Origin: an uncultured bacterium
Lineage (GTDB): Bacteria; Electryoneota; B3-LCP
Length of the DNA stretch: 64,000 bases
NCBI GenBank assembly: GCA_964623265.1
Contig: CAZUTK010000007.1
Location: 168 to 64,167, forward strand
Reading direction: 5' to 3'
Made by a program: the position numbers and the translations under genes. The first letter of the stretch is position 1; every line of letters begins with the position of its first letter. Positions 1 through 48,532 of this stretch are shown here, one piece after another. The notes under the pieces are model-generated. The model made no database searches. It was not told the DNA's origin and saw nothing but the letters and a program-made list of their open reading frames with translations.

Positions 1-1124
1 AAAATCGCCGAAGATAGATTTGCAACGGAACTATTCCCTGTCATCAGATTATACGATATTTGCGTTTCAACACCGGTTCCAATATAGATAACTCCACAAT
101 AAGTTACAATATTATCAATGAATTGATTACCTTGTACGGTGTATATTCCGTCCCAGAGATTGATACCTGCTCCCCAAACCGAAGTATTTTCAATGAACAG
201 ATTATTTGCAACGACTCCAATCACGCCACTGGAAAGAGTCAACGCGCCGAAACTTTGCGTATTGATATTTCGGATAAACTGATTGTTCTCAACGGTCACT
301 ATGGTTAAATTAGGCAATGCTCCAATAACAAGTCCGGAACCAATGATGAATTGTGAACTATGGTCAGCAATGATATTATCGCAAATCCAGTAGTTTCCTC
401 CTGAGAATAAACCGCAACCCACCGCCGGTGCAAAGTTGTTGAAGAAATGATTATTTAACACGCTGGCATTGTCACAATTAAATAATATGATTCCACCTGC
501 ATAATTGCTGGATGAATCATGGTGGATTTGATTATGCGCAATGACAAGAGCGCTGCTGTCACTGCTGATACCCCCACCGCCTGCAACAGCAAAATTGTTA
601 TATATATAATTGTCATGTATAATAGTTTCGGATTCCGCACCAATATAAATTCCGCCTCCCCAATCAGCACGATTCGAATGGATGATATTGGTTTTTAAGA
701 TCGGGCTTGAATGTCGAATGAAACAGCCTCCACCGTAGGTTTCTGTCGAACCCTGCCACCAGGTGTTTAAAGTCCCTTGACCGCCGGTGATCGTCAATCC
801 GGCGATGAGGGTGGTCGTATCCTGTCCATCACTAACATAGATCACGCTGGCGGAATCGGGGTTGGCGTAATGGCTGCCGTCTACGATTGTGTTCGTAATA
901 TGTGCCGTATCTGCATCCAGAAGATACCAGCTTGATAAAGTCAAATTTAATGGTGGGAAAACGATGTTTTCAAAGTACGTGCCGTCCGCTACGATAACAG
1001 TGTCGAATTCTGATACATTGTTGACAGCTTCCTGGATGGTGGAGTATTCTTCAGGTACATGGTGAATTGCTCCCCATGATGAATGCGAAAATAAAAGAAG
1101 GATCAGCAGAAGAATGAACATCAT
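1..1124 (-). CDS. Secreted parallel beta-helix repeat protein (pectate-lyase/adhesin-like), partial: C-terminus runs off window
   Basis: Uninterrupted minus-strand frame from ATGATG (1124-1119; GGAG 6 nt upstream) to the window edge, so it is absent from the ORF track. N-terminal signal peptide MMFILLLILLLFSHSSWG. Repeated ~22-aa N/G/I-rich units (e.g. NNLFIENTSVWGAGINLWDGIYTVQGNQFIDN) typical of right-handed beta-helix. Confidence 0.6.
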   Translation of the reverse strand, partial: MMFILLLILLLFSHSSWGAIHHVPEEYSTIQEAVNNVSEFDTVIVADGTYFENIVFPPLNLTLSSWYLLDADTAHITNTIVDGSHYANPDSASVIYVSDGQDTTTLIAGLTITGGQGTLNTWWQGSTETYGGGCFIRHSSPILKTNIIHSNRADWGGGIYIGAESETIIHDNYIYNNFAVAGGGGISSDSSALVIAHNQIHHDSSSNYAGGIILFNCDNASVLNNHFFNNFAPAVGCGLFSGGNYWICDNIIADHSSQFIIGSGLVIGALPNLTIVTVENNQFIRNINTQSFGALTLSSGVIGVVANNLFIENTSVWGAGINLWDGIYTVQGNQFIDNIVTYCGVIYIGTGVETQISYNLMTGNSSVANLSSAI

Positions 1125-1139
1125 TTTCTCCAATAAACA

Positions 1140-1177
1140 AGAAATATGCAGAGCAACGGCAATCACCGTTGCTCTGC
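1140..1177 (-). terminator. Rho-independent terminator candidate after gene 1191-1589
   Basis: Perfect 12-bp inverted repeat GCAGAGCAACGG-caatca-CCGTTGCTCTGC (1148-1177). T-rich tract on the minus strand immediately 3' (TTTCTTGTTTATTG). Confidence 0.5.
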
Positions 1178-1190
1178 ACTTAGTTTACGT

Positions 1191-1589
1191 TCACGGATTA
1201 TCTGAACCATAATCACCCGTACCGACCGAACATGTCGCCCATCCTGGTATTGGTTCTGTTCCGGTGTAAGTCGAAACGGTATAGGTGTGTCCATCTTGAA
1301 TTATGCCCGTAAGACTTCCTCCTGTGCTTTCATAGGTTACTTTGCTGAACATGGTTTGCGTATCCTCACTTATGGCAAGATATCCGGGATGATCCAAAGT
1401 ATGCATTGTAATACGCCAATGCCAGCTCGTGCCCGGCGGTGAATTGGCAGTAAAGTAAGCGGTACTGGATTGTGTGAAAGTGTATACCGTACAAGATTGC
1501 CGTTCATATGCTATAAGGGTACCGACAGCCATCAGTAGGATCAGTCCACACGCCAGAATCACAATGAGATTTTGTCTTTGTTTCCCCAT
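1191..1589 (-). CDS. Hypothetical small secreted/membrane-anchored protein
   Basis: 132-aa ORF with strong SD (AAGGAGG 6 nt upstream). N-terminal hydrophobic segment LIVILACGLILLMAVGTLIA. No recognisable family. Confidence 0.5.
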   Translation of the reverse strand: MGKQRQNLIVILACGLILLMAVGTLIAYERQSCTVYTFTQSSTAYFTANSPPGTSWHWRITMHTLDHPGYLAISEDTQTMFSKVTYESTGGSLTGIIQDGHTYTVSTYTGTEPIPGWATCSVGTGDYGSDNP

Positions 1590-1964
1590 TTCAACCTCCT
1601 TGAAAAGTTTCTTCGTTTTTTACAGAAATATCCCGTTGCACGCGTCCGAATAGGATCGGCAATCCCCTCCTTCCGACTTTAGGACGCACTTATAGTAAAA
1701 AAAATGAAAAAGTCAAGGCTTTTCGCAAAATTTTTAATTTTTTTTACACGTCACCGGAGTATGTCGTGCTGTTCTGCGGGATGTATATCTGAACCGCAGA
1801 TGACGCAGATTTCGCGGATTTTACGGATTATTTGCCGTGCCGTCGAGTGCGTAAGTAAATGACCGCTTCGTGGAAGAATCAAAAGCACGGGGAACCACTT
1901 CATGGCAAGACATTGCGGTCTGGATGGCAAGATGGAAGCGTTATCCTGACAAAGTTAGGATAGT

Positions 1965-2001
1965 CTAAAATCATCGAGGCCGCCCTTGCATAGGCGGCCT
2001 C
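1965..2001 (-). terminator. Terminator-like hairpin downstream of GGDEF gene
   Basis: GAGGCCGCC-cttgcata-GGCGGCCTC (1976-2001). Followed on the minus strand by GATGATTTTAG. Confidence 0.4.
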
Positions 2002-4070: not shown

Positions 4071-4913
4071 ATGCCTGAACTGCCGGAAGTCGAAACCATC
4101 GTGCGGGGCTTGCGCGCTCAGATTTTAGATATACCGATCGCGAACGCGAGATTATTGCGCCGGGATGTATTGAAAAATTCCGGTGTAAAGCCGGCGCAGT
4201 TTGCAAATTTCTTTCAGAGCAAGAGTTTCCGATCCGTTGAACGACTCGGGAAATTCATATTGTTCGAATTAAATACCGGCGATAAGCTGCTGGCGCATCT
4301 GGGGATGACCGGCAAATTCATCATCGGTAGACGAAATGCGCCTCTGCCGGATCATCTTTGCAGCCAGATATTCTTCGCCGATCCAATCAGGCTGGATCAT
4401 GTGGATGTCCGCCGTTTCGGCAGGCTGGAACTCTATACGCGGGATGCGGAGATTCCCGTCCTGAATCGGATCGGTCCGGATCCTCTCGCCCCCAGTTTCG
4501 GATGGAGGACGATGCAAACGCTGATCTTCACCCGGAATAGGAGCGGCAGGAGGCGGCGCGCCGTTCATACGTTGTTGCTGGATCAATCCTTGATATCCGG
4601 AGTCGGTAATATTTACGCTGCGGAAGCTCTCTTCCGCGCCGGCATCCGACCGCAGCGGCGGGCCGATCGAATTACGTCGAAGGAATTGGAACGGCTGACA
4701 GAAGCCTTACGACAGGTCTTATTGGACGCCTTGGAAGCAGGCGGGACGACGGTGAATGACTATCGCCGAGTGGACGATAAACCCGGTGAGTTCCGATCGC
4801 TGCTGCAGGTTTACGCCAGAGAAGGCGAGCCGTGCAAGCGCTGTCGAACCGGCATCCGACGCGTCCGGATTCAGAATCGAAGCGCTTTTTTCTGCCCGTC
4901 CTGTCAGAAATGA
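4071..4913 (+). CDS. mutM: Formamidopyrimidine-DNA glycosylase
   Basis: N-terminal MPELPEVETI (catalytic Pro2), H2TH region. C-terminal zinc finger CKRCRTGIRRVRIQNRSAFFCPSCQK. Confidence 0.9.
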   Translation: MPELPEVETIVRGLRAQILDIPIANARLLRRDVLKNSGVKPAQFANFFQSKSFRSVERLGKFILFELNTGDKLLAHLGMTGKFIIGRRNAPLPDHLCSQIFFADPIRLDHVDVRRFGRLELYTRDAEIPVLNRIGPDPLAPSFGWRTMQTLIFTRNRSGRRRRAVHTLLLDQSLISGVGNIYAAEALFRAGIRPQRRADRITSKELERLTEALRQVLLDALEAGGTTVNDYRRVDDKPGEFRSLLQVYAREGEPCKRCRTGIRRVRIQNRSAFFCPSCQK

Positions 4914-4925
4914 TGATGGCGCCGC

Positions 4926-5999
4926 ATGGAGATGCATCCCGATTCCAATACCGATTCTACTGCAATGTCCGCACATCGGTTTCTACGCGGCAATTCCGCG
5001 CGATATTTCGGCGCGTATCTCCTGGCGTTTCTATGTCTATTCCTCGTATTTTACGACGCCCGCATCGGCGTCATCATCGAGCAAATGGGAGCCATCCGCT
5101 GGAGATGGATGCTGGCGGCGGTAATACTTGAAATCTGCGTGTATATCCTGGAAGGTTTGCAGTGGCAGCTTCTCTTGAAACCGCAGGGTCGGATCACTTG
5201 GTATAAAGCGATGCAAGCGATTTACGTCGGTCTGTTCGCCAATGAAATTCTGCCGCTGCGCGCCGGCGAAGTTGCTCGAGCGTATCTCGTTTCCCGCTGG
5301 CTGAAGTCTTCGTTCGTCGCGATACTTCCATCCATTATGCTGCAGAGATTTATGGATGGGATTTGGTTGATCATCGCTCTCGGAATCACCGCCATTCTGG
5401 TGGATCTGCCGAAGAATCTGGTCCAAGCAGCGGATATTTTCGGCGTCGCTCTTCTGGGCGCTACGATTCTGTTGGTTTTCCTGATCTTTCGCAGGGAGAA
5501 GAAATTGGAGAGAGGATCGGTGGAGACTCGCTACCACTGGAAGCTATTGCAATACTTCGCCTCGGTCATCCAGCGGATCGCCGCCGGAATTCGAACAATC
5601 GGCACATCCGGATCCTTCTATGCGGCATTCGGCGTTGCTTTCTTCGTGCTTTTTTTTCAAGTCCTTTCCTTCTGGTTGATGATGCTGGCATACGGGATCA
5701 CGGTTTCCGTTTGGGTCGGCGCCGCGGTGCTGTTCATCGTTCTTTTGGGCACGGCGATCCCCAACGCGCCGGCAAATCTCGGCACGTTCCAATTCTTTGC
5801 GGTTCTGGGCTTGTCGTTGTTCGAAGTGGATAAGACCACGGCAACAGGATTTTCCGTCATCTCGTTCTCGTTGATCACCGCATTATTTTTAATCTTAGGT
5901 TTTTTCGCTGTCAGCATGAGCGGTATTCATTTCAAGCAGATCAAAGATGACATTGCGACTTTATGGAATGCCCAGCGAAAGAATAGAGCAGCAACCTGA
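4926..5999 (+). CDS. UPF0104 / lysylphosphatidylglycerol-synthase-TM-like integral membrane protein (flippase-like)
   Basis: ~8 predicted TM helices. Conserved LPLRAGEVARAYLVSRW segment typical of the UPF0104 family. Confidence 0.55.
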   Translation: MEMHPDSNTDSTAMSAHRFLRGNSARYFGAYLLAFLCLFLVFYDARIGVIIEQMGAIRWRWMLAAVILEICVYILEGLQWQLLLKPQGRITWYKAMQAIYVGLFANEILPLRAGEVARAYLVSRWLKSSFVAILPSIMLQRFMDGIWLIIALGITAILVDLPKNLVQAADIFGVALLGATILLVFLIFRREKKLERGSVETRYHWKLLQYFASVIQRIAAGIRTIGTSGSFYAAFGVAFFVLFFQVLSFWLMMLAYGITVSVWVGAAVLFIVLLGTAIPNAPANLGTFQFFAVLGLSLFEVDKTTATGFSVISFSLITALFLILGFFAVSMSGIHFKQIKDDIATLWNAQRKNRAAT

Positions 6000-6019: not shown

Positions 6020-6667
6020 ATGATTCCAGACTCGCAAAAGATCGAAAATGCCGTCTTATGCGGCGAGACGGAAACTGCCGCATCTCTCGCTCATGAATTG
6101 CTCGCAGCCGGAATGCCGCGACTTGACGCGCTCCAGCCATTCATCGCCGCCATCCGGCGCGCCGGCGACCTCTTCGAACAAGGTGATTTTTTCCTCCCCC
6201 AGCTTCTCTTGGCATCCAACGCTATGAAAGCGGCTCTGGATGTTATCTACCCCCGCGATTCGCAGGAAACGAATGGCATTTATCAAGGTACGGTGCTGGC
6301 TGGGACGGTTCAGGGCGATATCCACGAAATCGGCAAGAATCTGGTCTGCGCTCTGCTGACCGCTCACGGCTTCAGAGTCATTGATCTGGGCGGCGATGTG
6401 GCTCCGAACCGCTTTCTCGAACAAATCCGAGTAATAAAACCGGATCTGCTGGCGCTGTCCGCTCTGTTGACGACTACGATGATCCAGCAGAAGCGGATGA
6501 TCGAATTGCTGGAAGAAGCCGATCTGCGAAACCGGGTGAAAGTGATGGTCGGCGGCGCGCCCGTCACCTCGCAATGGGCGCAAAGCATCGGCGCCGACGG
6601 TTACGCCCCTGACGCGGCGCGCGCCGTAGATCTGGCATTCGGTTTGTTGGGAAAAAGCCGTGCGTGA
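6020..6667 (+). CDS. Cobalamin-binding corrinoid protein (MtgC/MtbC-like, B12-binding domain)
   Basis: N-terminal B12-binding cap helix bundle. DxHxxG motif (GDIHEIGKN) and Rossmann-like GGxxxT region (MVGGAPVT). AGAGGA SD. Confidence 0.8.
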   Translation: MIPDSQKIENAVLCGETETAASLAHELLAAGMPRLDALQPFIAAIRRAGDLFEQGDFFLPQLLLASNAMKAALDVIYPRDSQETNGIYQGTVLAGTVQGDIHEIGKNLVCALLTAHGFRVIDLGGDVAPNRFLEQIRVIKPDLLALSALLTTTMIQQKRMIELLEEADLRNRVKVMVGGAPVTSQWAQSIGADGYAPDAARAVDLAFGLLGKSRA

Positions 6668-7553
6668 GCCGATCGTTCGGCGAATTGCGCAAGGAAAACC
6701 CCTGCTGTTCGACGGAGCACTGGGTACGAGATTGATCGCGCGAGGCTTGTCCGCCGGAACACCGCCGGAAGACTGGGTTTTGCGTCATCCGGAACAGCTG
6801 CTGAACGTGCATCGCAGCTATGTCGAGGCGGGATCAGAGGCCATCGCCGCCTGCACGTTCGGCGCTAACCGCCTGCGTCTTCGCAAAACAGGACTGGAAG
6901 ATCGGATCGAAACGGTCAATTGTGAAGCGGTGCGTCTGGCTCGGGAAGCGGCGGGAGAGAACGTGTACGTTGCGGCGGATATCGGACCCACCGGCGAATT
7001 CTTTGAACCGATCGGGGCTTTGACGGAAACTGAAGCCGAAGCCATTTTCGAAGAACAGGCGAGGTTTCTCGCGCATACGGACGTGGATTTCCTTTTCTTG
7101 GAGACTTTTTATGATCTGCGGGAAGCGCGCATCGCGTTGAAGGCTTGCCGGGAAGCCGCGCCTCAGATCCCGATTGCGGCCAGCCTGACATTCAGCCGTA
7201 AGCCGCGCGGTTTTTTTACAGTGATGGGGGACCCCGCCGTCGCCTCCCTGCGCGCCCTGATGGAAGATGGGGCGTTCCTGATTGGTTCGAATTGCACTCA
7301 GGAAGCAAAGGGAATGCTGGAATTGGCGCGGGTGCTGATTCTCGGTGAGCTTCAGGCTCCTCTCGTTTTCCAGCCCAACGCCGGTGAACCGCAGGTGACA
7401 ACGAGCGGGATCATTTATCCGCAGGACGCCGAAACATTCAGCGCATTGGTTGCGGAAATGCTCGCGCTGGGTGTCCGCGCCGTCGGGGGATGCTGCGGAA
7501 CGGATGAAAGCCATATTCGCGCTATTAAGAAACAGATTGAAAATCAGTTTTAG
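6660..7553 (+). CDS. Homocysteine-S-methyltransferase-domain protein (Zn-dependent thiol methyltransferase, MetH Hcy-domain-like)
   Basis: LFDGALGT N-terminal motif. Zn-ligand cysteines IGSNCTQE and AVGGCCGT. GTG start overlaps the stop of the corrinoid gene (translational coupling). Confidence 0.75.
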   Translation: MREPIVRRIAQGKPLLFDGALGTRLIARGLSAGTPPEDWVLRHPEQLLNVHRSYVEAGSEAIAACTFGANRLRLRKTGLEDRIETVNCEAVRLAREAAGENVYVAADIGPTGEFFEPIGALTETEAEAIFEEQARFLAHTDVDFLFLETFYDLREARIALKACREAAPQIPIAASLTFSRKPRGFFTVMGDPAVASLRALMEDGAFLIGSNCTQEAKGMLELARVLILGELQAPLVFQPNAGEPQVTTSGIIYPQDAETFSALVAEMLALGVRAVGGCCGTDESHIRAIKKQIENQF

Positions 7554-7655
7554 CGAAGTTCTTATGATGGACTTCGATCCGCCTTGCGCTTAAAGCAGCG
7601 GAATGGACAAGCAGCGGCGGATCCGACAATCACGGATCAACGAGAGCGATAAAAA

Positions 7656-9131
7656 ATGAATCAACTATCTCCTCTCTGCATCGTCACGGAAGAGTTCATC
7701 GAAGATGTCATCTCGGAAGCGTTCGACATCCTGATGAAGGTCGGCGTCTACGTCGAGAATCCGGAAGCCTACTCTCTCCTCTGCGAGCATGGAGCGAAAC
7801 CGCAGAACGAATCGAAAAGCGGCAATCGCATCGGGAAGCTGCTCTTTTCTCAAGCGATGATTGAGAAGGCGTTGGAAACTGCCCCGCTGTCCATTCGGCT
7901 TGCGGATGTAACAGGCGATGAATCACTCGCATTGCAGGATGACCAGGTGCACTATGATCCGGGTTCTGCGGCGTTATTCCTGCATGATCCCGCCGCCGGG
8001 CGCATCTGCAAACCGACAACAAAGGACTTGCTTAGATACATACGGCTCGTAGATCTCCTCCCTCATTATCACCTGCAATCCAGCGCCTTGATCAGCGCCG
8101 ATGTGCCCGAATCCTGCGCGGATTCCTATCGGCTCTATCTGGCTTTGCGACACGGAAGGAAACCGGTTGTAACCGGGACGTTCCACAAGAGCAGTTTCGG
8201 GCTGATGCACGAGATGCTGGCGTTGGTGCGTTCCGGTGAACAGGCTTTGCGGGAACTGCCGCTGGCGATCTTCGATGCCTGCCCCTCGCCGCCGTTGATG
8301 TGGTCGGATTTGACGTCGCAGTCCGTCCTGGATGCCGCGCGAGCGGGGATCCCATCGGAGTTCGTTTCCATGCCGCTCACCGGTTCCACGGCGCCGGTAA
8401 CGCTTGCCGGAGCGGTTGTGCAACACGCCGCCGAAACGCTCTCCGGCGTGGTGCTGGCTCAGTGCGCGATGGCGGGCGCTCCCGTCATCTGGGGCGGATC
8501 TCCTTCCGCGATGGATTTGCGTTTCGGCACGACGCCGATGGGCGCTATTGAGACTATGATGCTGAACCTGGCGGATGTTGCCGTGGGGAAGTATCTGGAT
8601 TTGCCCACACACGCCTATATGGGATTATCCGATGCCAAGCAAGTGGATTATCAAACTGGGATGGAGTCCGCGCTGGGGATCCTCTTAGCCGGATTGGCGG
8701 GGATCAACGTCGTTTCCGGCGCTGGGATGCTGGACTTTGAAAACTGCCAGAGTCTGGAGAAACTGTATCTGGATCATGAAATCTGCGCAATGACGTATAG
8801 ATTCCTCGCGGGGATCGTTCGTCGGGATGACGTTATGGCTCTGGATCTGCTGGCGTCGCTGCCGCACGGCGGACATCTTTTAACTCACCCCCACACCTTG
8901 CGCTGGTTTAAGGAAGAGATCGCGATGCCAGGCAGAGCTATTGACCGACGCGCGAGGAATTCCGAAGTTCTCTCGGAACTGCCGTCCGCGGCGGAACAGG
9001 CGCATGCCGAGGTTGAACGTTTGTTGAGCGGCGAGGCGCACCCTTACCTGGATGAAAAGGTGCTCGCTCAGTTGGATCAAATGATGACGGCGGAATTGAA
9101 ACGATTCGGTGCGAAGGGGTTGCCGGAATAA
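7656..9131 (+). CDS. MttB-superfamily (trimethylamine methyltransferase family) substrate:corrinoid methyltransferase, non-pyrrolysine member
   Basis: 491 aa. Strong similarity pattern to MttB core (PLTGSTAPVTLAGAVVQHAAETLSGVVLAQ ... GAGMLDFEN). Position of the Pyl codon in MttB (AGS-O-SDAK) is Leu here (MGLSDAK), as in MtgB/MtpB/MtcB-type quaternary-amine methyltransferases. Confidence 0.8.
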   Translation: MNQLSPLCIVTEEFIEDVISEAFDILMKVGVYVENPEAYSLLCEHGAKPQNESKSGNRIGKLLFSQAMIEKALETAPLSIRLADVTGDESLALQDDQVHYDPGSAALFLHDPAAGRICKPTTKDLLRYIRLVDLLPHYHLQSSALISADVPESCADSYRLYLALRHGRKPVVTGTFHKSSFGLMHEMLALVRSGEQALRELPLAIFDACPSPPLMWSDLTSQSVLDAARAGIPSEFVSMPLTGSTAPVTLAGAVVQHAAETLSGVVLAQCAMAGAPVIWGGSPSAMDLRFGTTPMGAIETMMLNLADVAVGKYLDLPTHAYMGLSDAKQVDYQTGMESALGILLAGLAGINVVSGAGMLDFENCQSLEKLYLDHEICAMTYRFLAGIVRRDDVMALDLLASLPHGGHLLTHPHTLRWFKEEIAMPGRAIDRRARNSEVLSELPSAAEQAHAEVERLLSGEAHPYLDEKVLAQLDQMMTAELKRFGAKGLPE

Positions 9132-9137
9132 ACCGAT

Positions 9138-10151
9138 TCAGGCGGGGCAGAGTTCAAGTGGAAGATCCCTTTTTTCCAGATACTGGCGTGGATTCCGGTC
9201 GAATTCGGCGATATCGGAGCGGATGGAATTCAGATCCGGGAGCTGTGCATTCCCCTGCGCATAGCAATAGAGGCATCCGAATCCGCCGCTGTAACAACTC
9301 ACCGATCCAGTCGAATAACCGATATCCCGGCTGTAGGTGCAGCAGCAGGTCGGCCGTTGTCTGCCGATGCGGTTGTGCGGGATTTCGGTGGCGGGTTTCG
9401 AAGCATACCCTTTGATGCGGTTCAACCAGCGAGCATCAATGCAGCCCCAGTTATCGGTAAGCTCGGGGATGTGAGGTTCACAACAAATGCTGAAATCGCC
9501 GCCTCGGGAGCGAATGAATTCAGCCATTGAAGCGCAGAGGTCTGCAGCTTCCGAATCCGGGATGTGCAGCCAGGTAAGGTTCAATTTTCGAAAGCGGCCG
9601 GCAACTTTTGGATAGCGGACGGCGTCGCCGCGACTGGTGGTGATCCGTCGGATGCCGAGTCCCAGAAATTCCGAGCTGATCCGGCGGAAAATTACTTCGT
9701 CCGCGTTGCTGCAGATTCTCCCCGCCGGCGTGCGGATCCTGATGAAAGGATCATAGCGGAAAAGAACGGCTTCGGGCGGAATCCAGCCTTCGGCGATCAA
9801 GCGCTTCAACTGCGCATGAACCGCTTTCCAGTGAGGAATGCCGGGTTCGATGAAGCTGCCGCCCAGCGAAGTTGCGGTGATCTGCAGCGCGATTTGCACG
9901 TGATGCTTGACCCGCAGCTTCTGCAGCGCATCTCGAAGCTTCCCATGAGTGAGTAGATTCGCGGGATCTTTCGTCCAGAGCACCACGCTGTGCAGCGCAG
10001 ACGGGTCCACCCGGCCGAACGGTCCATGCGGACCCCATCGGCAGGGAGCTTTCCCCAAGAGAATATCCGCCAACAGATCCGGCACGCGGTGAACCATGTC
10101 CTTTGTGCGGGAAGCGGAGAGGATCAACGGCGTTTGCAGATCGTGGATCAT
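9138..10151 (-). CDS. DUF1848-like protein (Cys-rich C-terminus)
   Basis: N-terminal LILSASRTKD resembles the ISASRRTD signature I recall for DUF1848. C-terminal cluster RPTCCCTYS ... CYSGGFGCLYCYAQG suggests a metal/Fe-S site. Convergent with the MttB gene (6-nt spacer). Confidence 0.4.
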   Translation of the reverse strand: MIHDLQTPLILSASRTKDMVHRVPDLLADILLGKAPCRWGPHGPFGRVDPSALHSVVLWTKDPANLLTHGKLRDALQKLRVKHHVQIALQITATSLGGSFIEPGIPHWKAVHAQLKRLIAEGWIPPEAVLFRYDPFIRIRTPAGRICSNADEVIFRRISSEFLGLGIRRITTSRGDAVRYPKVAGRFRKLNLTWLHIPDSEAADLCASMAEFIRSRGGDFSICCEPHIPELTDNWGCIDARWLNRIKGYASKPATEIPHNRIGRQRPTCCCTYSRDIGYSTGSVSCYSGGFGCLYCYAQGNAQLPDLNSIRSDIAEFDRNPRQYLEKRDLPLELCPA

Positions 10152-39851: not shown

Positions 39852-40742
39852 TCAAGAGCTCTGAAAAACGGCATCCCGCGTGCGGGAAAATTCCATCTGC
39901 ACGTTGAGAATAATGCGGGATAAATCGTCCTTTTCTATCTTGAAGAAAGATTCCACGGTTTCGTCGAGGCGATAAGAAAGAGAATCCGCGCCGGTGCCCT
40001 GCCCCGCCATCATCGCCAGCAGGTCGCCAGTGTGCACGGCTGCGACCAGCACCCGGTCTTTCAACGCCGCAGAAGACGGATGATGGTGATGCCGGATCAC
40101 CGCGCAGAGTTCTTGCGGCAGATTCCAATGCGCCGCCATTTCCGCTCCGATCCGGCAGTGATCCGTCCCCAGCAGTTCCCGTTCTGCGGCGAGGAAGTCT
40201 TCGCTGCGGCGGGTGTCGCACCATTGCGTCAGCGTCTCCGCATTTCCCCGCAGGAATTCTGAGATAATGGTTTTTCCGATGTCGTGGAGCAATCCGCCGG
40301 TAAACGCCAGATCCAGAGATACGGGCGCCGCAGCGTAGCGCGCGACTTCCCTGGTGGCGATGGCGCAGCAGAGCGAATGATCCCACATCTCGCCCGCGCA
40401 GCTTTCATAACCGACCAGAGGGTGTGCGAAAAGGTCCGGTGCGCAGGCGCCCAGGGCGATGCCGATGACCATCTTCTCCCCCAGGTGAATGATGGCGCGC
40501 GAAACTGTGGTGATCTGCTGCCCCCGTGAAAATGCTGCGGAATTCGCCACACGCAGGACCTTCACCGTCAGTGAGGAATCGCTCTCCACAATCTGAACGA
40601 TTTCCTGCAGGGAATGCTTTTCCCGCCCCACCATTTCCAGCAGGCGATGCACGACCAACGGCAGCGTCGGCAGGCGGTTGACTTTCTGCGCGATGGCTGC
40701 CGCCTGTGCGTCCTGCCATCCGGTTTCAGTTATAATTCCCAT
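39852..40742 (-). CDS. HDOD domain protein
   Basis: HD-related output domain pattern (LPTLP ... GLLHDIGK ... HHHHP). Confidence 0.7.
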   Translation of the reverse strand: MGIITETGWQDAQAAAIAQKVNRLPTLPLVVHRLLEMVGREKHSLQEIVQIVESDSSLTVKVLRVANSAAFSRGQQITTVSRAIIHLGEKMVIGIALGACAPDLFAHPLVGYESCAGEMWDHSLCCAIATREVARYAAAPVSLDLAFTGGLLHDIGKTIISEFLRGNAETLTQWCDTRRSEDFLAAERELLGTDHCRIGAEMAAHWNLPQELCAVIRHHHHPSSAALKDRVLVAAVHTGDLLAMMAGQGTGADSLSYRLDETVESFFKIEKDDLSRIILNVQMEFSRTRDAVFQSS

Positions 40743-41215
40743 TCCCCCCTGCCCGGCGATGAAAGAATCACCCGACCGCGGCCGACTTCCAGAGTCACCG
40801 TGCGGCTGATGTTATCGCCGACGTCTTCTGCGATCGCTCCCAGATGATTCGCCCATAGGATCTTCTTCACCGCCAGAATATTGCGTTTGCCGATATTGAA
40901 GGTGTTGTTGGGATCCATGATGCTGGCGCCGCCTGCTAATTTGATCATGAAACCCCCGCCGGTTACTCCGGATTTCCGGATCATAGTTTGAATCAGCAGG
41001 GGAATGCCGGTATCGGCGAACATCCCCGGACGCTCCTGCGCCAGCTTCTTGTTGATCGAGGAATCCGGCAGAGCGATGTGAATCAATCCGGCAGTGCGGC
41101 GATCCCGGGTGCTGGCAATCACGGCTACGCAGGAACCCAGCGCCATCGTCTTGATGACGTCATCCGGCGAATTCGAGGCGGCCATTTCACCGATGCCGAC
41201 ATAGATGGTCGCCAT
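40730..41215 (-). CDS. cheD: Chemoreceptor glutamine deamidase CheD
   Basis: ALGSCVAV active-site Cys motif. 161 aa. Confidence 0.85.
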   Translation of the reverse strand: MATIYVGIGEMAASNSPDDVIKTMALGSCVAVIASTRDRRTAGLIHIALPDSSINKKLAQERPGMFADTGIPLLIQTMIRKSGVTGGGFMIKLAGGASIMDPNNTFNIGKRNILAVKKILWANHLGAIAEDVGDNISRTVTLEVGRGRVILSSPGRGEWEL

Positions 41216-42294
41216 TACTGCATCTCCGCCAGCAAGCCCAATATCGTCGGTGCAATCGCCGGCAATGGGACCAAGCGCTCCGCTCCGCCCCTTTCGTAGG
41301 CGACCTTCGGCATGCCGAATACTACGGAAGTCGCTTCGTCCTGCGCGATCGTCCTGGCGCCTTCTTTTCGCATAGCGACCATCCCGTCCGCACCGTCATG
41401 TCCCATGCCGGTCAGCATGACTCCGACAGCATTCGCGCCAACGTGTCGCGCGACGGACTGCATTAATACTTCGACCGAAGGTCGGTGACCGCAGACTTTG
41501 TCGCCGGTCTTGCATTCCACGCGGTAGGTGCCGCCGGAACGCTGCACCGTCAGGTGATAATCACCGGGGGCGATCAGCACTCTGCCCTGCATCACGCGAT
41601 CACCGGTCTCGGCTTCCTTAACCGACATGGCGCACAACTCGTCCAGGCGTTCGGCGAACATCTTCGTGAAGCCTGCAGGCATATGCTGGACGATGACAAC
41701 GCCCGGCGTCGAAGCGGGCAATTGCTGCAGTACTTGACGGATCGCTTCCGTGCCGCCAGTGGAAGCACCGATGGCGATGACTTTATCCGTTGATTCCGCC
41801 AGTGACTGCGGAGTGTATGCCAACTTCGGAGCGGATTGCCGGCTGATTTTTTTCCAGGCGCTGACATTGACGGACGCCGCGGCTTTCACTTTGGCGCGCA
41901 ATTCGTCCAACATGCCGTTCAGGCCCCGAGCCACGTCGCTGCCAGGTTTCGTCACAAAATCCACGGCGCCGGCTTCCAGAGCTTCCAGCGTGATCCTCTT
42001 GCCCCGTTGCGTCAGAGCGCTCACCATGATGACGGGAAGCGGGTGCTGGGGCATCAGCCTGCGCAGGAACTCCACCCCATCCATCTTCGGCATCTCCACG
42101 TCCAGCGTGAGGACGTCGGGGCGGAGTTCAACGATTTTGTCGCGAGCCGCATAAGGATCGGCGGCTTGCCCCACGACTTCGATCTCCGGGTCCATCGCCA
42201 AACCGCGTCGCAGAATCTCCCGCACCATCGCGGAATCATCCACTATAAGAACTTTAATCCGCTTCTTGCGGAGCGGCGGCGTTATTGGATTCAA
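41215..42294 (-). CDS. cheB: Chemotaxis methylesterase CheB (receiver + methylesterase)
   Basis: N-terminal receiver VLIVDDS ... DVLTLDVEMPKMDG. C-terminal methylesterase with IAIGASTGG and GMGHDGA. Confidence 0.9.
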   Translation of the reverse strand: MNPITPPLRKKRIKVLIVDDSAMVREILRRGLAMDPEIEVVGQAADPYAARDKIVELRPDVLTLDVEMPKMDGVEFLRRLMPQHPLPVIMVSALTQRGKRITLEALEAGAVDFVTKPGSDVARGLNGMLDELRAKVKAAASVNVSAWKKISRQSAPKLAYTPQSLAESTDKVIAIGASTGGTEAIRQVLQQLPASTPGVVIVQHMPAGFTKMFAERLDELCAMSVKEAETGDRVMQGRVLIAPGDYHLTVQRSGGTYRVECKTGDKVCGHRPSVEVLMQSVARHVGANAVGVMLTGMGHDGADGMVAMRKEGARTIAQDEATSVVFGMPKVAYERGGAERLVPLPAIAPTILGLLAEMQ

Positions 42295-42295
42295 A

Positions 42296-43228
42296 TCAGC
42301 CTACCTTCTGATAAACCGCCGGTTTGACATATCGGAAATAGTGATTGCTGCGCCCTAAGGTTTCCGAATGACCGATGAAAAGATATCCGTCGGGCTCTAA
42401 ATAGCGGTGAAAGCGCTGCGTCAATGCCATGCGCGTGGGATGGTCGAAGTAGATCATCACATTGCGGCAGAAGATGATGTGAAATTTGCCCTTGAAGGGA
42501 TACGTTTCGCGCATCAGATTCAAGCGGCGGAACGTTACCAACTCCCGCAATTTCGGATGAACGAGCATCGAACCGTCAGCTCTCTGCGAGAAGTATTTTT
42601 TGACGAGATTCGCCGGTAAATGGTGCACGCTTTCGGATGAGTACATCCCCGCCTGAGCGATCTGTAATACCCTGGATGAGATATCCGTTGCCAGAATCCC
42701 CACATCTGGCGAAGAAATTCCACCGAATCTGGTGCGGTGTTGGTTCTGCACTCCGTCATCTTGATTGGAAGAGAGGAATTCGAGCAGTAGCATACCCAAT
42801 GTGTAAGGCTCTTCACCGGTGGAGCAGCCCGGACACCAAATTCTCAGAACCGCAGATTTTGACTTGCGGTTGGAGAACAGTTGGGGCAACACCGTTTCGA
42901 AATAGAACTTGAAATGATCGTTCTCACGGTAAAAGAAGGTGTGATTGGTGGATATGCGGTCAATCAGACGCGTCAGCGCTGCTCCGCTGGATTCCGTGAC
43001 GACATATCGGTAATAGTCGGTGAAATTCGTGAATCCGTTTTCACGCAGCACTTTTTGAAGGCGTCCGGTGATCAGAGCCCGCTTCTGCTGCCCCAGGTTA
43101 ATCCCGAAGTTTTCGTAAACCAGATCGCGGATCAACCGATATTCCCTGTCGGTCAGCGGCGACGGTTCCGCCGGGATGACGTTATTTTGTTGTTTTTCTT
43201 GATCCTCGCAGGTCAGTGCATTTTTCAT
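42296..43228 (-). CDS. cheR: Chemotaxis protein methyltransferase CheR
   Basis: CheR N-terminal helical domain and SAM-binding domain (RIWCPGCSTGEEPYT). Confidence 0.9.
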   Translation of the reverse strand: MKNALTCEDQEKQQNNVIPAEPSPLTDREYRLIRDLVYENFGINLGQQKRALITGRLQKVLRENGFTNFTDYYRYVVTESSGAALTRLIDRISTNHTFFYRENDHFKFYFETVLPQLFSNRKSKSAVLRIWCPGCSTGEEPYTLGMLLLEFLSSNQDDGVQNQHRTRFGGISSPDVGILATDISSRVLQIAQAGMYSSESVHHLPANLVKKYFSQRADGSMLVHPKLRELVTFRRLNLMRETYPFKGKFHIIFCRNVMIYFDHPTRMALTQRFHRYLEPDGYLFIGHSETLGRSNHYFRYVKPAVYQKVG

Positions 43229-43330
43229 CTTTGGTTCCGAACTCTACCACCCATTCGAGTCTGATATTTCACACAGGATAGACGACTCGCTTGGAAGAAT
43301 GATTCCGCCGGAAGACGGCGCGGTGAATCT

Positions 43331-43858
43331 TCACGCCGCGGCGGCTTCGCTGATCTGCTCGAGCTCCTCGTCGAAGAGGAGATTCTGTATATCCAGGAGG
43401 ATTTTCACCTCGTCGTCGAGATGCCCTAAGCCCGCGACGAAACGGCTGCTTTTCCCTTTTCGCACTTGCGGCGGCGGTTCGATTTTCCCAGCAGGAATGT
43501 CCACGACTTCGGATACGGAATCCACGATCAGCCCGACCGACGCTTCCCGGATATTGACGACGATGATGCAGGTTCGCTCATCGTAGGGTCTCTCTTCCAA
43601 TCCGAAGCGCAAGCGGACGTCAATGACGGGAATCACCTTGCCGCGCAGATTAATGACGCCTTTGACGAAATCCGGCATATCCGGCAGATCCGTCACGTTT
43701 TGAATCCCGATGATTTCGGTCACGTTGCGGATTTCTATGCCGTACTCTTCTTTACCCAGTGCGAAGGTTAAATACTTCCCTTCCTGGATGTCCTGCGATT
43801 CTTGGTTCTCCAGAATCTCTTCGCTTAGTCTGTCATGGTCTGCCATCTTCCGCTCCAT
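43331..43858 (-). CDS. cheW: Chemotaxis coupling protein CheW
   Basis: CheW-like domain (YLTFALGKEEYGIEI ... VINLRGKVIPVIDVR). Start taken at ATG 43858 (MERK.., 7 nt after the cheA stop); the ORF-track extension would overlap cheA. Confidence 0.85.
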   Translation of the reverse strand: MERKMADHDRLSEEILENQESQDIQEGKYLTFALGKEEYGIEIRNVTEIIGIQNVTDLPDMPDFVKGVINLRGKVIPVIDVRLRFGLEERPYDERTCIIVVNIREASVGLIVDSVSEVVDIPAGKIEPPPQVRKGKSSRFVAGLGHLDDEVKILLDIQNLLFDEELEQISEAAAA

Positions 43859-43865
43859 AGTTGTT

Positions 43866-46283: not shown

Positions 46284-46553
46284 GCTTTCCCCATGGATAT
46301 CGGTTATCAATCATTCTGTTGCTTAGCGAACAGTCTTGCGGATCGCAGAATTTTCCAGCCGATACAAAGGGTATAAAATAGATGATTTCGATGGGTATTC
46401 AAGGAAAAACAGCAATTTCTAAGGGGAATTTCGGATTCGGCGGCGAAGCGGTTAAAATTCACCGGTGACCCGCGTCGCTTCAGAATTAGAATCCATAAGC
46501 ATTTGCGCATGTCCAACACTCCTGCCATTAGAAAAGGATTGACATCATGGGAC

Positions 46554-46615: not shown

Positions 46616-48532
46616 ATGCAACACACCGTCATCGGCACAGCCGGCCACGTGGATCACGGCAAGTCCTCTCTGATCAAGGCGCTCACGGGAACCGATCCCG
46701 ACCGCTTGCAGGAGGAAAAAGAGCGGGAGATGACGATTGATCTTGGGTTCGCGTTCCTCGGGGATCATATCACGTTCATAGACGTTCCCGGCCATGAGAA
46801 GTTCATCAAGAATATGCTTTCCGGCGTGGCGACGGTGGACGCCGTCCTGTTTGTCATCGCCGCGGATGACGGCTTTATGCCTCAGACCGAAGAGCATTTT
46901 GAGATTCTGAAGTTGTTGGAAGTCGAACGCGGCATGGTGGTTCTGACGAAAATTGATATGGTAGATCCCGATTGGCTGGACTTGATGGAAGAGGACATCC
47001 GGGAGCGTCTGGAGGGGTCTTTTCTGGAAAAAGCGCCGATTTACCGCGTGGACAGCTTAAGTTACAAAGGCATTGAAGACCTGAAGAAAGCCATCTTCGA
47101 ACTGGCGGCGAGCCTCCCGCCTCGACCGGAAAAGGGAGTTTTCCGAATGTACGTGGATCGGGTTTTCACGATCCGCGGGGCGGGCACGGTGGTGGCGGGG
47201 ACGGTTTTGGGCGGGCGCGTGAAAACGGGCGAACGCATCGAGCTGCTGCCCAGAGGGATTGAAGTCCGCGTGAAGCGCATCCAGGTGCATAACGTGGAAG
47301 TGCCGGAAGCCCGCACAGGCGAACGGGCGGCGATCAATCTGCAGGGGGTGGAAACTTCGCAGATTGCGCGCGGCGATTTGCTCGCACAAATCGGCTATTT
47401 CAAGCCGACCTATATGATCAATGCGTCCTATCTTCACCTCCGCTCCGCCGCGCGTCCACTTGAAAACCGCACGCGAGTGCGCCTGCATCTCGGCACGGCG
47501 GAATACCTAGCCCGCGCCGTGACTCTGGAAAAAAAGCCGCTGCTTCCCGGCGAGAGCGGCTTCCTGCAGTTGCGCATCGAAGCGCCTGTCGTCTGCGAAA
47601 TCGGGGATCGTTTCGTGATTCGGGATTATTCTCCGAGCCGCACCATCGGCGGAGGCAGAGTCCTGGAAGTGCACCCCAAGAAACTGAAATATCTGCCGTA
47701 CGAAGAGATTGAAGTCCTGGAAGTCCTCGATGCGGGCAGCCCTGCGGATCTGGTGGAACAGCACATCCGCCGCGGCGGCTTCAAGCCGTTCAATATCGAG
47801 ACGCTGGCTAAAGAGCTCTCGCGACCGGTGAATGAAGTCGGCGCTCTGGTCGGAGAACTTTCCGCCGCGGAAAAATTGGTGCGACTGGTGAATCCTACGA
47901 CGAACTGGTTCCTGCACCAATCGGTTTACCAGGATGCGCGGGGTCGGCTTTTAAAAATGCTGGATGAATTTCACCGAAACGCACCTTATCGGCTGGGGAT
48001 GCGGCGTTCCGAGTTGGCGGGGAAACTCTTCGGCAGTGTGGATCGTTCCCTCTACGATGCTTTCCTCGACCAGCTGATTGAGGACGAAGAATTGGATGCT
48101 TCCGGCGAAATCGTTTACCGCCGGGGACACCAAATCCGCTTCGATTCCCGCCAGGAAGCTCTGGCTCAAAAAATTCTCAAGATTTATTGGGATACGGCGT
48201 ATGTAACGCCGGAATTCGAAGAACTCGTTGACCAGTTAGGCGAATCGGCGGAAGAGGTGCGCAAAATCATCAACGGTCTGGTGGACAGTGGGGAATTGAA
48301 AGAATTAGGTATCGGCATCGGGCGCGCTTTAATCTTTCACACCGAAAGAATCGTTCAAGCCCGTGAAATCATTCTGCGGCTCTTCAGCCAGAAGAACGAG
48401 GTCGCCTTTTTCGAGGTGCGGGAAGCTCTCCAGTCCACCCGAAAATTTACGACTCCGATTCTGAATTATTTCGACCAGATAGGATTGACGGTGCGCGTGG
48501 GGGATGGGCGTATGTTGAAAGAGCGCGCCTGA
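46616..48532 (+). CDS. selB: Selenocysteine-specific translation elongation factor SelB
   Basis: N-terminal GTPase ([25 protein letters not shown]) with EF-Tu-like domains II/III. ~250-aa C-terminal winged-helix extension characteristic of SelB. Confidence 0.85.

What the first reader, a model, noticed from the sequence alone, without database searches (positions are those of the whole stretch)
6020..9131. Three-gene corrinoid methyl-transfer operon that pairs a non-pyrrolysine MttB-family methyltransferase with a homocysteine-S-methyltransferase-type (not pterin-binding) partner
Seen in sequence: there are three translationally coupled or closely spaced genes. They encode a B12-binding corrinoid protein (DxHxxG), a PF02574-type Zn thiol methyltransferase (Cys ... 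GGCCGT ligands), and a 491-aa MttB-superfamily protein with Leu at the pyrrolysine position.
Established knowledge: characterised non-Pyl MttB systems (MtgB, MtpB, MtcB, MtyB) hand the methyl group from a quaternary amine via the corrinoid protein to tetrahydrofolate, using a pterin-binding MtgA/MtqA.
Inference: here the third component is instead MetH-Hcy-domain-like. This suggests a split, methyl-THF-independent route from a methylated amine (betaine/carnitine-type substrate unknown) directly to methionine or another methylated thiol.
Basis: partly seen in the sequence, partly recalled or inferred. Interest (0 to 1): 0.65.

Follow-up and report, generated by a model that had tools for sequence, protein, structure and literature searches.

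The report
MttB-type split methionine synthase operon
Three adjacent genes encode a vitamin-B12 carrier protein, a homocysteine methyltransferase and a trimethylamine-methyltransferase-family protein that probably make methionine from an unidentified methyl donor; the gene set is real and widespread, was noted in a 2022 genome survey, and has never been tested.

Summary
Window 6020-9131 (+) encodes a corrinoid protein (DxHxxG), a stand-alone PF02574 homocysteine S-methyltransferase with the Zn cysteine triad, and a 491-aa PF06253 (MttB-family) protein with Leu324 at the pyrrolysine position.

The MttB homologue belongs to a large uncharacterised clade, separate from MtgB and MttB. I found it in at least 588 stretches of GTDB species genomes, including Asgard archaea. 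In 52 flank-complete loci its neighbours are a corrinoid protein (44), the homocysteine methyltransferase (28), a MetH-activation-domain protein (31) or a RamA-type activase (11). No pterin-binding gene turned up in the window or the related loci. One Eisenbacteria genome fuses the activation domain to MttB.

All four glycine-betaine-binding residues of MtgB are replaced clade-wide (Ser, His/Gln, Ser, Glu). The donor is therefore probably not a betaine or carnitine type.

Best reading: a MetH-like methionine synthase in pieces, with the MttB module in place of the folate module and an unknown methyl donor.

This is not new as an idea. Williams et al. 2022 (PMC9324843) described the same cluster and made the same hypothesis, and Mausz et al. 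2025 showed a related MtgBCDE system. No biochemistry exists. The window's version lacks the activation gene. Interest is moderate.

The parts
6020..6667 (+). Corrinoid (B12-binding) carrier protein of 215 aa, of the MttC/MtgC type. It has a cap domain plus a Rossmann B12 domain, with the His-on motif DxHxxG at nt 6317-6334.
   Evidence: PF02607 (57.6 bits) and PF02310 (94.2 bits). In NCBIfam the best match is TIGR02370 'methyltransferase cognate corrinoid protein' at 190.5 bits (below the 215.3 cut-off), then MtgC/MtbC at about 170 bits, against 105 bits for the MetH B12 domain.
6660..7553 (+). Stand-alone homocysteine S-methyltransferase module of 297 aa, with a GTG start overlapping the corrinoid gene stop by 8 nt. 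Zn ligands are Cys212 (nt 7293-7295) and Cys278/Cys279 (nt 7491-7496). The DGALGT and ETF motifs are present.
   Evidence: PF02574 at 209.7 bits. The best solved relative is the T. maritima MetH Hcy domain 1Q7M at 166.9 bits, against 82 bits for BHMT, and the three Cys residues align. The top 120 homologues are all single-domain proteins of 256-340 aa.
7554..7655 (+). 102-nt intergenic spacer between the Hcy methyltransferase and MttB genes. In many relatives a MetH-activation-domain gene sits at this position; here there is none.
   Evidence: Sequence. The ACT HMM gave no hit anywhere in the six-frame translation of the window. Rfam found nothing.
7656..9131 (+). Non-pyrrolysine MttB-superfamily methyltransferase of 491 aa, the putative methyl-donor:corrinoid methyltransferase. 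Leu324 (nt 8625-8627) is at the Pyl position. The clade signature is S104, H319, S354, E362 at the positions of MtgB Y97, R312, H348, F356. The clade motif FDACPSPP is at nt 8271-8294.
   Evidence: PF06253 at 228.9 bits. TIGR02369 scores 315.6 bits, below the 525 cut-off. PDB hits are MtgB 9YCE/2QNE at 174 bits and MttB 7XCL at 145 bits. Residue mapping is, the tree.
4071..5999 (+). Co-directional upstream genes that may be co-transcribed: fpg (4071-4913) and a flippase-like LPG_synthase_TM protein (4926-5999). These are context, not part of the methyl-transfer system.
   Evidence: for the families. Gaps of 12 and 20 nt are. The fpg-to-corrinoid synteny is conserved in L001-L004.

Best explanation
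**What it is.** The three genes encode a MetH-like, cobalamin-dependent methionine synthase built from separate proteins. An MttB-superfamily TIM-barrel protein takes the place of the folate (pterin-binding) module.

**Proposed cycle.**
1. The MttB homologue binds a small methylated donor and transfers one methyl group to the Co(I) corrinoid on the carrier protein.
2. The methyl-Co(III) carrier docks on the PF02574 protein.
3. A Zn-activated homocysteine thiolate on that protein takes the methyl group. This yields methionine and regenerates Co(I).

**Reactivation.** Oxidised Co(II) is presumably repaired by a MetH-type activation protein or a RamA-type activase encoded elsewhere in this genome. 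Both are found next to the cluster in relatives.

**The donor.** It is unknown. The active-site signature argues against glycine betaine and against the other acidic quaternary amines used by characterised family members.

**Shown versus inferred.**
- Shown: the gene content, motifs, clade membership and conserved gene neighbourhood.
- Inferred: the direction of methyl flow, homocysteine as the acceptor, and independence from methyl-THF.
For: **Module identities and intact catalytic motifs.**

**Translational coupling.** The corrinoid and Hcy methyltransferase genes overlap.

**Conserved neighbourhood, starting from MttB relatives.** The 80 best GTDB species loci carry MttB at 47-67% identity. 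They span LCP-89, Krumholzibacteriota, Zixibacteria, KSB1, Ignavibacteria, Acidobacteriota, Aminicenantes, Phycisphaerales, Coprothermobacterota, and Heimdall, Thor and Prometheus archaea. Of these, 52 have complete flanks. On the same strand these hold:
- a corrinoid protein in 44
- the Hcy methyltransferase in 28
- a roughly 215-aa MetH activation-domain homologue in 31
- RamA/RACo in 11
- at least one MetH-specific module in 37

The activation-domain homologue L010:8150-8803 passes the PF02965 gathering score, 28.2 against 25.

**Reciprocal test.** Three of three Hcy-methyltransferase relatives at about 50% identity sit in corrinoid-Hcy-(activation)-MttB clusters.

**Gene fusion.** L088 (Ca. 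Eisenbacteria) has one 710-aa ORF with the activation domain at residues 4-206 and MttB at 228-706.

**No pterin module.** The E. coli MetH pterin domain gave 0 hits in any locus or in the window. Neither PF00809 nor MtrH appeared among families found three or more times in 150 flanking ORFs. The whole window was Pfam-scanned without one.

**Context.** The surrounding genes are housekeeping, with no transporter or dimethylglycine/sarcosine catabolic genes. That fits an anabolic role.

**Independent literature.** The same hypothesis is made for the same cluster in PMC9324843.
Against: - No enzyme of this clade has been assayed, and the methyl donor is unknown.
- The rest of the genome could not be searched, so a stand-alone pterin-binding partner or a full MetH elsewhere cannot be excluded. 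Williams et al. found a full MetH in their MAGs. In Rhodobacterales the pterin subunit MtgD is required for methionine synthesis even though an MttB-family MtgB shares the corrinoid protein.
- The window has no reactivation gene, neither an activation-domain protein nor RamA.
- Part of the clade lacks a nearby Hcy methyltransferase. There are 8 RamA-corrinoid-MttB loci and 9 corrinoid-activation-MttB loci, and 7 flank-complete loci with no partner module at all. The MttB-corrinoid pair may therefore also serve other acceptors.
Confidence: 0.58

Rival explanations
1. **Dual-use system of the MtgBCDE type.** The corrinoid protein and the PF02574 protein are two parts of an ordinary split MetH. 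It receives its methyl group from methyl-THF through a pterin-binding subunit encoded elsewhere. The MttB homologue is a catabolic demethylase that merely shares the corrinoid carrier and normally passes methyl groups on to THF.
For: - This arrangement is established genetically in Ruegeria pomeroyi and Phaeobacter. There MtgC serves both glycine betaine demethylation and methionine synthesis, MtgD (PF00809) is required for both, and the subunit genes are scattered.
- Williams' MAGs keep a folate-dependent MetH.
- Some clade members have RamA-corrinoid-MttB clusters without an Hcy methyltransferase.
Against: - In the proteobacterial systems mtgB, C and D cluster together and mtgE lies apart. 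Here the pattern is the opposite: B, C, E and the MetH activation domain cluster together, and no pterin gene appears in any related locus or in the window.
- No downstream C1-oxidation or demethylation genes flank the cluster.
- The corrinoid protein here is MttC/MtgC-like. describes the roseobacter MtgC as closest to CmuA.
Confidence: 0.27
2. **Different acceptor or reversed flow.** The PF02574 protein methylates a thiol other than homocysteine. Alternatively, it loads the corrinoid from a methyl-sulfur or sulfonium donor, and the MttB module then methylates an amine.
For: - As general knowledge, PF02574 proteins use varied methyl donors; BHMT and the S-methylmethionine:homocysteine enzymes are examples.
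- The protein falls below every NCBIfam equivalog cut-off.
Against: - It is much closer to the MetH Hcy domain (166.9 bits) than to BHMT (82 bits). It keeps the Zn triad and the DGALGT and ETF motifs shared with the MetH Hcy domain.
- Its usual neighbour is a MetH activation-domain protein.
- As general knowledge, methyl transfer from methylcobalamin to homocysteine is strongly favoured, and no MttB-family enzyme is known to run in the amine-methylating direction.
Confidence: 0.08
3. **Unrelated functions.** The adjacency is historical and the three proteins do not work together. For example, the PF02574 protein could be a cobalamin-independent BHMT- or MmuM-type enzyme.
For: No direct interaction data exist. 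In this lineage the genes sit in a housekeeping string with unrelated genes such as fpg.
Against: - The cluster is conserved across bacterial phyla and Asgard archaea while the surroundings change.
- The corrinoid and Hcy methyltransferase genes overlap.
- An activation-domain-MttB fusion exists.
Confidence: 0.04

Closest known systems
[quoted passage not shown] Electryoneota and other bacteria (Williams et al. 2022, Environ Microbiol, PMC9324843)
   Same: - The same three protein families, with a non-pyrrolysine MttB homologue placed in an uncharacterised clade apart from MtgB and MttB.
- The same proposed role: corrinoid-dependent methionine synthesis from an unknown methyl donor.
- The four-gene form is the commonest architecture in the clade that contains the window's protein (23 of 83 loci).
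   Different: - The window and its LCP-89-lineage relatives lack the activation-protein gene in the cluster.
- That published cluster is itself only a genomic prediction. I could not compare sequences directly, because the paper's supplement is not held.
MtgBCDE of Ruegeria pomeroyi, Phaeobacter inhibens and Sinorhizobium meliloti (Mausz et al. 2025, PNAS, PMC12478193)
   Same: A PF06253 methyltransferase, a separate corrinoid protein and a separate PF02574 homocysteine module, with the corrinoid protein linking methylamine demethylation to methionine synthesis.
   Different: - That system needs the pterin-binding MtgD. Its substrate is glycine betaine, its role is mainly catabolic, and mtgE is usually unlinked.
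- Here no pterin gene is linked and the betaine-binding residues are absent.
- The Hcy module, rather than the pterin module, is the clustered partner.
MtgABC of Desulfitobacterium hafniense and the Eubacterium limosum systems (MtpB, MtcB, MtyB, MthB with MtqC/MtqA)
   Same: Three-component logic: substrate:corrinoid methyltransferase of the MttB superfamily, a corrinoid protein, and a second methyltransferase. All are non-pyrrolysine members.
   Different: - Their acceptor is tetrahydrofolate, reached through a methylcobalamin:THF methyltransferase.
- The substrates are acidic quaternary amines bound by a conserved Arg (R312) and an aromatic pair.
- The window protein has His319, Ser104, Ser354 and Glu362 at those positions, and it scores only 174 bits against MtgB.
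Cobalamin-dependent methionine synthase MetH (E. coli, T. maritima)
   Same: The Hcy module is its closest solved relative and shares its Zn triad. Relatives of the cluster also carry a MetH activation-domain homologue. The overall Co(I)/CH3-Co(III) ping-pong chemistry is the same.
   Different: - The modules are separate proteins.
- The folate-binding PF00809 module is missing and an MttB-family barrel is present instead.
- The B12 module resembles methylamine-type corrinoid proteins more than the MetH B12 domain.

Membership tests
MttB superfamily (PF06253) | Full-length match to the family profile above the curated cut-off, and homology to the solved TIM-barrel structures | tested here: met
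   PF06253 at 228.9 bits against a cut-off of 25, covering residues 2-477. Alignment to MtgB 2QNE/9YCE (E = 4e-50) and MttB 7XCL (E = 4e-41) runs over almost the whole length.
True trimethylamine methyltransferase MttB (TIGR02369) | In-frame UAG-encoded pyrrolysine at the active site, and a score above the equivalog cut-off | tested here: not met
   The ORF is uninterrupted with Leu324 at the Pyl column. TIGR02369 scores 315.6 bits against a 525 cut-off.
Glycine betaine methyltransferase MtgB | Betaine-binding motif Y97, R312, H348, F356 (PMC13080624) | tested here: not met
   The window has S104, H319, S354, E362. Across 83 clade members the residues are S in 83, H in 76 or Q in 7, S in 83, and E in 81. 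The pairwise alignment agrees.
Characterised quaternary-amine members (MtpB, MtcB, MtyB, MthB) | The conserved Arg equivalent to R312, which salt-bridges the acidic group of the substrate | tested here: not met
   The position is His or Gln in the whole clade. The conservation of R312 is stated in PMC13080624. Sequences of these four enzymes were not available for a direct tree.
Williams-type MttB/Hcy-methyltransferase/corrinoid/activation cluster | Non-Pyl MttB homologue of the uncharacterised clade adjacent to a corrinoid protein and a PF02574 protein | tested here: met
   The window protein nests inside the clade whose members carry the four-gene cluster.
Williams-type MttB/Hcy-methyltransferase/corrinoid/activation cluster | MetH activation-domain (PF02965-like) protein in the cluster | tested here: not met
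   The ACT HMM gave no hit anywhere in the window, and the Hcy-methyltransferase-to-MttB gap is only 102 nt. The gene is also absent in L001-L004 and in the Acidobacteriota loci L023, L042 and L046.
Split MetH / MtgBCDE | Separate corrinoid subunit with the His-on DxHxxG motif, and a separate PF02574 subunit with the Zn Cys triad | tested here: met
Split MetH / MtgBCDE | Pterin-binding (PF00809) subunit | tested here: inconclusive
   None in the 64-kb window and none in any related locus. The rest of the genome cannot be searched with these tools, and in known split systems this gene is often unlinked.
Split MetH / MtgBCDE | Reductive reactivation component (RamA/RACo-type or MetH activation domain) | tested here: not met
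   Not present in the window. It is present beside the cluster in relatives, as the activation-domain protein in 31 and RamA in 11 of 52 loci.
Betaine-homocysteine methyltransferase (BHMT, cobalamin-independent) | Score above the equivalog cut-off and closest similarity to BHMT | tested here: not met
   PRK07534 scores 190 bits against a 338 cut-off. PDB BHMT scores 82 bits against 166.9 for the MetH Hcy domain.
Any of the above | Enzymatic activity: donor:corrinoid and methylcorrinoid:homocysteine methyl transfer | not testable with these tools

The most novel reading that the evidence does not exclude
The clade defines a pyrrolysine-independent MttB module that activates a methyl donor unlike any known for the family. 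The donor would be a non-acidic methylammonium or tertiary amine, or even an N5-methyl-pterin, held by the invariant Ser/His/Ser/Glu pocket. Together with its corrinoid and homocysteine modules, it would be the main or only methionine synthase in many uncultured anaerobic phyla and Asgard archaea. In effect this would be MetH with its folate barrel swapped for an MttB barrel.
Probability: 0.2. Interest if true: 0.8.

Novelty: new member of a known kind. Interest (0 to 1): 0.5.

Why it matters
**If the proposed role is right.** A large group of uncultured sediment and subsurface lineages would make or regenerate methionine from a methyl donor other than methyl-folate. It would add a further class of methionine synthase to those already known. 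It would also give a function to one of the largest unassigned branches of the MttB superfamily, and it would change how 'mttB' hits in metagenomes are read. Such hits are currently taken as trimethylamine use (PMC12484752).

**What this analysis adds to the 2022 prediction.**
- The breadth and frequency of the association.
- An activation-domain-MttB fusion.
- A clade-wide active-site signature that rules out the known betaine-binding mode.
- The existence of a three-gene form without the activation gene.

**What it does not add.** It identifies no methyl donor and provides no biochemical evidence.

Tried and rejected
- **Exact look-up of window proteins.** The window's MttB and enolase were not on record, so I annotated the window by direct Pfam scans instead.
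- **Regulatory signals.** Rfam at gathering threshold found no riboswitch or other RNA anywhere in the window. The sigma-70 promoter and terminator scan around the operon was no better than shuffled sequence. No tRNAs were found.
- **Single-sequence searches with E. coli MetH domains.** The pterin and activation domains found nothing in any locus. For the activation domain this was a sensitivity failure: a custom HMM built from the neighbour cluster found it in 43 loci.
- **ORF-calling artefacts.** Neighbour clusters 5, 8 and 9 from my ORF calling were antisense ORFs lying over the real genes in GC-rich genomes, so I discarded them.
- **Other recurrent neighbours.** Sortilin/BNR, TPR, M49 peptidase, aminotransferase, NadA, SDR and isochorismatase/radical SAM genes are lineage-specific synteny with no link to methyl transfer.
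- **Adjacent class-I SAM methyltransferases.** The family recurred among the flanking ORFs (5 of 150), and L087 has one directly upstream of its corrinoid gene. A search with the L074 protein recovered only L074 and L075, so it is not one conserved orthologue.
- **Williams et al. supplement.** The supplementary table and tree are not held, so I could not check whether LCP-89 is already listed there.
- **Readings considered and rejected.**
  - A true TMA MttB with a missed UAG: the ORF is intact with Leu324.
  - A BHMT-like cobalamin-independent enzyme: the protein is closer to MetH and is coupled to the corrinoid gene.
  - DUF1848 (9138-10151, - strand) as a partner: it is convergent and syntenic only within the LCP-89 lineage.


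Full report
**1. What is in the window**

Three ORFs lie on the + strand at exactly the stated coordinates.

- **6020-6667** encodes a 215-aa corrinoid protein. It matches PF02607 and PF02310. It has D100xH102xxG105, then SxL and GG. In NCBIfam it is closer to the methylamine/betaine-type corrinoid proteins (TIGR02370 at 190 bits, MtgC/MtbC at about 170 bits) than to the MetH B12 domain (105 bits). It reaches no curated cut-off.
- **6660-7553** encodes a 297-aa single-domain PF02574 protein (209.7 bits). Its closest solved relative is the homocysteine domain of Thermotoga maritima MetH (1Q7M, 166.9 bits), against 82 bits for BHMT. Cys212, Cys278 and Cys279 align with the Zn-binding cysteines of 1Q7M.
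- **7656-9131** encodes a 491-aa PF06253 protein (228.9 bits). Leu324 sits in the column of the pyrrolysine of M. barkeri MttB.

The first two genes overlap by 8 nt. A 102-nt gap precedes the third.

One refinement applies. The trio ends a tightly packed co-directional string that includes fpg (4071-4913) and a flippase-like gene (4926-5999), so the transcription unit may be longer than three genes.

**2. The rest of the window**

I ran every sizeable ORF in the 64 kb through Pfam. I found no pterin-binding protein, RamA/RACo activase, MetH, MetE or MetF. The content is housekeeping:

- enolase, succinyl-CoA ligase, AccA and PolA
- cell-envelope glycosyltransferases
- a chemotaxis cluster
- SelB and DapF

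Rfam found no riboswitch.

**3. Whether the association is conserved**

*Close relatives.* The nearest relatives of the MttB protein (67-86% identity) come from uncultured FCB-group bacteria, including candidate division LCP-89. Three of them, examined on long contigs, have the same corrinoid / Hcy-methyltransferase / MttB trio behind fpg.

Of these, 588 encode a relative. The scan used two motifs drawn from the most conserved stretches of the clade alignment. The best 80 loci carry MttB at 47-67% identity. They span the following groups:

- LCP-89, Krumholzibacteriota, Zixibacteria, KSB1 and Ignavibacteria
- Acidobacteriota/Aminicenantes, Spirochaetes and Anaerolineae
- Phycisphaerales and Coprothermobacterota
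- Heimdall-, Thor- and Promethearchaeati archaea

*Neighbour families.* Unbiased clustering of neighbouring ORFs, Pfam checks and custom HMMs run on six-frame translations gave four recurrent same-strand neighbours. One of them is a protein of about 215 aa that matches the MetH activation domain; L010:8150-8803 scores 28.2 bits against PF02965, above its gathering score of 25. In the 52 loci with complete flanks the counts are:

| Neighbour | Loci (of 52) |
|---|---|
| Corrinoid protein | 44 |
| MetH activation-domain protein | 31 |
| PF02574 Hcy methyltransferase | 28 |
| RamA/RACo activase | 11 |
| At least one MetH-specific module (Hcy or activation) | 37 |
| No partner module | 7 |

*Architectures.* The commonest order is corrinoid, Hcy methyltransferase, activation protein, MttB (23 of 83 loci). 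The window's form, without the activation gene, occurs in 8 loci. Those include an Acidobacteriota group.

*Reciprocal test.* I started from relatives of the window's Hcy methyltransferase, which are all stand-alone proteins. Three of three look-ups landed in the same cluster.

*Fusion.* In one of those, a Ca. Eisenbacteria genome, the activation domain and MttB are fused in a single 710-aa ORF.

*No pterin partner.* No pterin-binding gene appeared in any locus:

- The E. coli MetH pterin domain gave zero hits.
- Neither PF00809 nor MtrH is among the families seen three or more times in 150 flanking ORFs.

*Flanking genes.* They differ from lineage to lineage. They include no transporters and no dimethylglycine/sarcosine or C1-oxidation genes.

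**4. What kind of MttB this is**

In a neighbour-joining tree, all 83 proteins form one clade apart from D. hafniense MtgB and M. barkeri MttB.

Picking et al. (PMC13080624) define the glycine-betaine site of MtgB as Y97, R312, H348 and F356. They note that R312 is conserved in all members of known function, whose substrates are all acidic quaternary amines. In this clade those columns read (the pairwise alignment agrees):

| MtgB position | Residue in the clade (of 83) | Window residue |
|---|---|---|
| Y97 | Ser (83) | S104 |
| R312 | His (76) or Gln (7) | H319 |
| H348 | Ser (83) | S354 |
| F356 | Glu (81) | E362 |
| Pyl column | Leu (64) or Met (17) | L324 |

The protein is therefore neither a TMA MttB nor an MtgB. 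It is unlikely to use a carnitine- or betaine-type acidic substrate. The invariant Glu, where MtgB has a cation-pi phenylalanine, is compatible with a cationic methylamine. That last point is inference only.

**5. How it most likely works**

The gene content reproduces three of the four MetH modules (homocysteine, cobalamin, activation) as separate proteins. An MttB-family barrel stands where the folate barrel would be.

The simplest reading is a split methionine synthase. The MttB module methylates the Co(I) corrinoid protein from an unknown donor. The PF02574 module then passes the methyl group to Zn-bound homocysteine. An activation-domain or RamA protein rescues Co(II). In this window that last component must be encoded elsewhere.

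I give this reading about 0.58.

**6. Rival readings**

- **MtgBCDE model, about 0.27.** The corrinoid and Hcy modules would be an ordinary split MetH fed by an unlinked pterin subunit. MttB would be a catabolic enzyme sharing the carrier. Against it, the clustering pattern here is the reverse of the proteobacterial one, and no catabolic genes are linked. It cannot be excluded without the whole genome. Williams et al. found a full MetH in their MAGs.
- **Different thiol acceptor or reversed flow, about 0.08.**
- **No functional link, about 0.04.**

**7. Comparison with what is known**

The exact cluster was described in the Ace Lake MAG study: a non-pyrrolysine MtgB/MttB homologue, a homocysteine S-methyltransferase, a corrinoid protein and an activation protein, 'found in diverse bacteria'. 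The authors made the same hypothesis, a novel corrinoid-dependent methyl transfer for methionine synthesis from an unknown donor (PMC9324843).

Mausz et al. 2025 showed genetically that an MttB-family system and methionine synthesis share a corrinoid protein in marine Alphaproteobacteria (PMC12478193).

Five further full-text searches found no biochemical or genetic work on this clade.

The finding is therefore a further, slightly reduced (three-gene) member of a kind already recognised bioinformatically. It is not a new kind.

**8. Verdict**

The feature is real, conserved and functionally coherent, and it is still uncharacterised. It is probably wrong about the substrate class, and unproven on folate independence. 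It also overstated the novelty.

Interest is 0.5. The idea itself is published, but the clade is large, it reaches Asgard archaea, its methyl donor is an open and directly testable question, and 'mttB' hits of this kind are currently being read as trimethylamine use.

Noticed in passing
L088:6930-9062 (Ca. Eisenbacteria, GCA_016235265.1, JACRLI010000019.1): A single 710-aa ORF fuses a MetH activation-domain homologue (residues 4-206) to an MttB-clade domain (residues 228-706). It lies directly after the corrinoid and Hcy methyltransferase genes.
   Followed up: yes
L016, L026, L035, L043, L057, L061, L062, L084 (e.g. L026:3126-7225): Eight members of the same MttB clade sit in RamA/RACo-corrinoid-MttB clusters with no Hcy methyltransferase within 10 kb. 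Another nine have corrinoid-activation-MttB only. Either the Hcy module is unlinked there, or the clade also feeds other acceptors.
   Followed up: partly
L049:3894-5354 and L080:3016-4446: A second, divergent MttB-family paralogue lies about 5 kb upstream of the clade member. It has different residues at the substrate positions (G, S/I, L/F, S; Ala at the Pyl column) and branches outside the clade.
   Followed up: partly
L074:8320-9123, L075:235-1062, L087:4541-5353: Class-I SAM-dependent methyltransferases (Methyltransf_11/UbiE-like) lie inside or immediately upstream of the cluster in a few loci. A search with the L074 protein recovered only L074 and L075, so this is not one conserved orthologous group.
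   Followed up: partly
window 9138-10151 (- strand): A DUF1848 protein lies convergent with the MttB gene, its stop only 6 nt from the MttB stop. This adjacency is kept in L001 and L002 but not in L003, and no functional link is evident.
   Followed up: partly
window 46616-48532 (+): A SelB selenocysteine-specific elongation factor is present, yet no tRNA of any kind (including tRNA-Sec) was detected in the window. I did not look for selenoprotein genes.
   Followed up: no
window 1-2000: G+C falls to 0.44 against about 0.54-0.58 elsewhere. The stretch holds an open frame on the minus strand that runs off the window start, and a small ORF at 1191-1589 (-).
   Followed up: no
window 39852-46310 (- strand): A chemotaxis cluster: an HDOD-domain protein, CheB, CheR and a CheA-type kinase with a fused CheW domain.
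   Followed up: no
PMC12484752: A 2025 study reads MttB hits in Zixibacteria, Spirochaetota and Desulfobacterota MAGs as trimethylamine methyltransferases that feed HgcA. The MttB clade described here includes genomes from the same phyla and lacks pyrrolysine, so such annotations may need revisiting.
   Followed up: no
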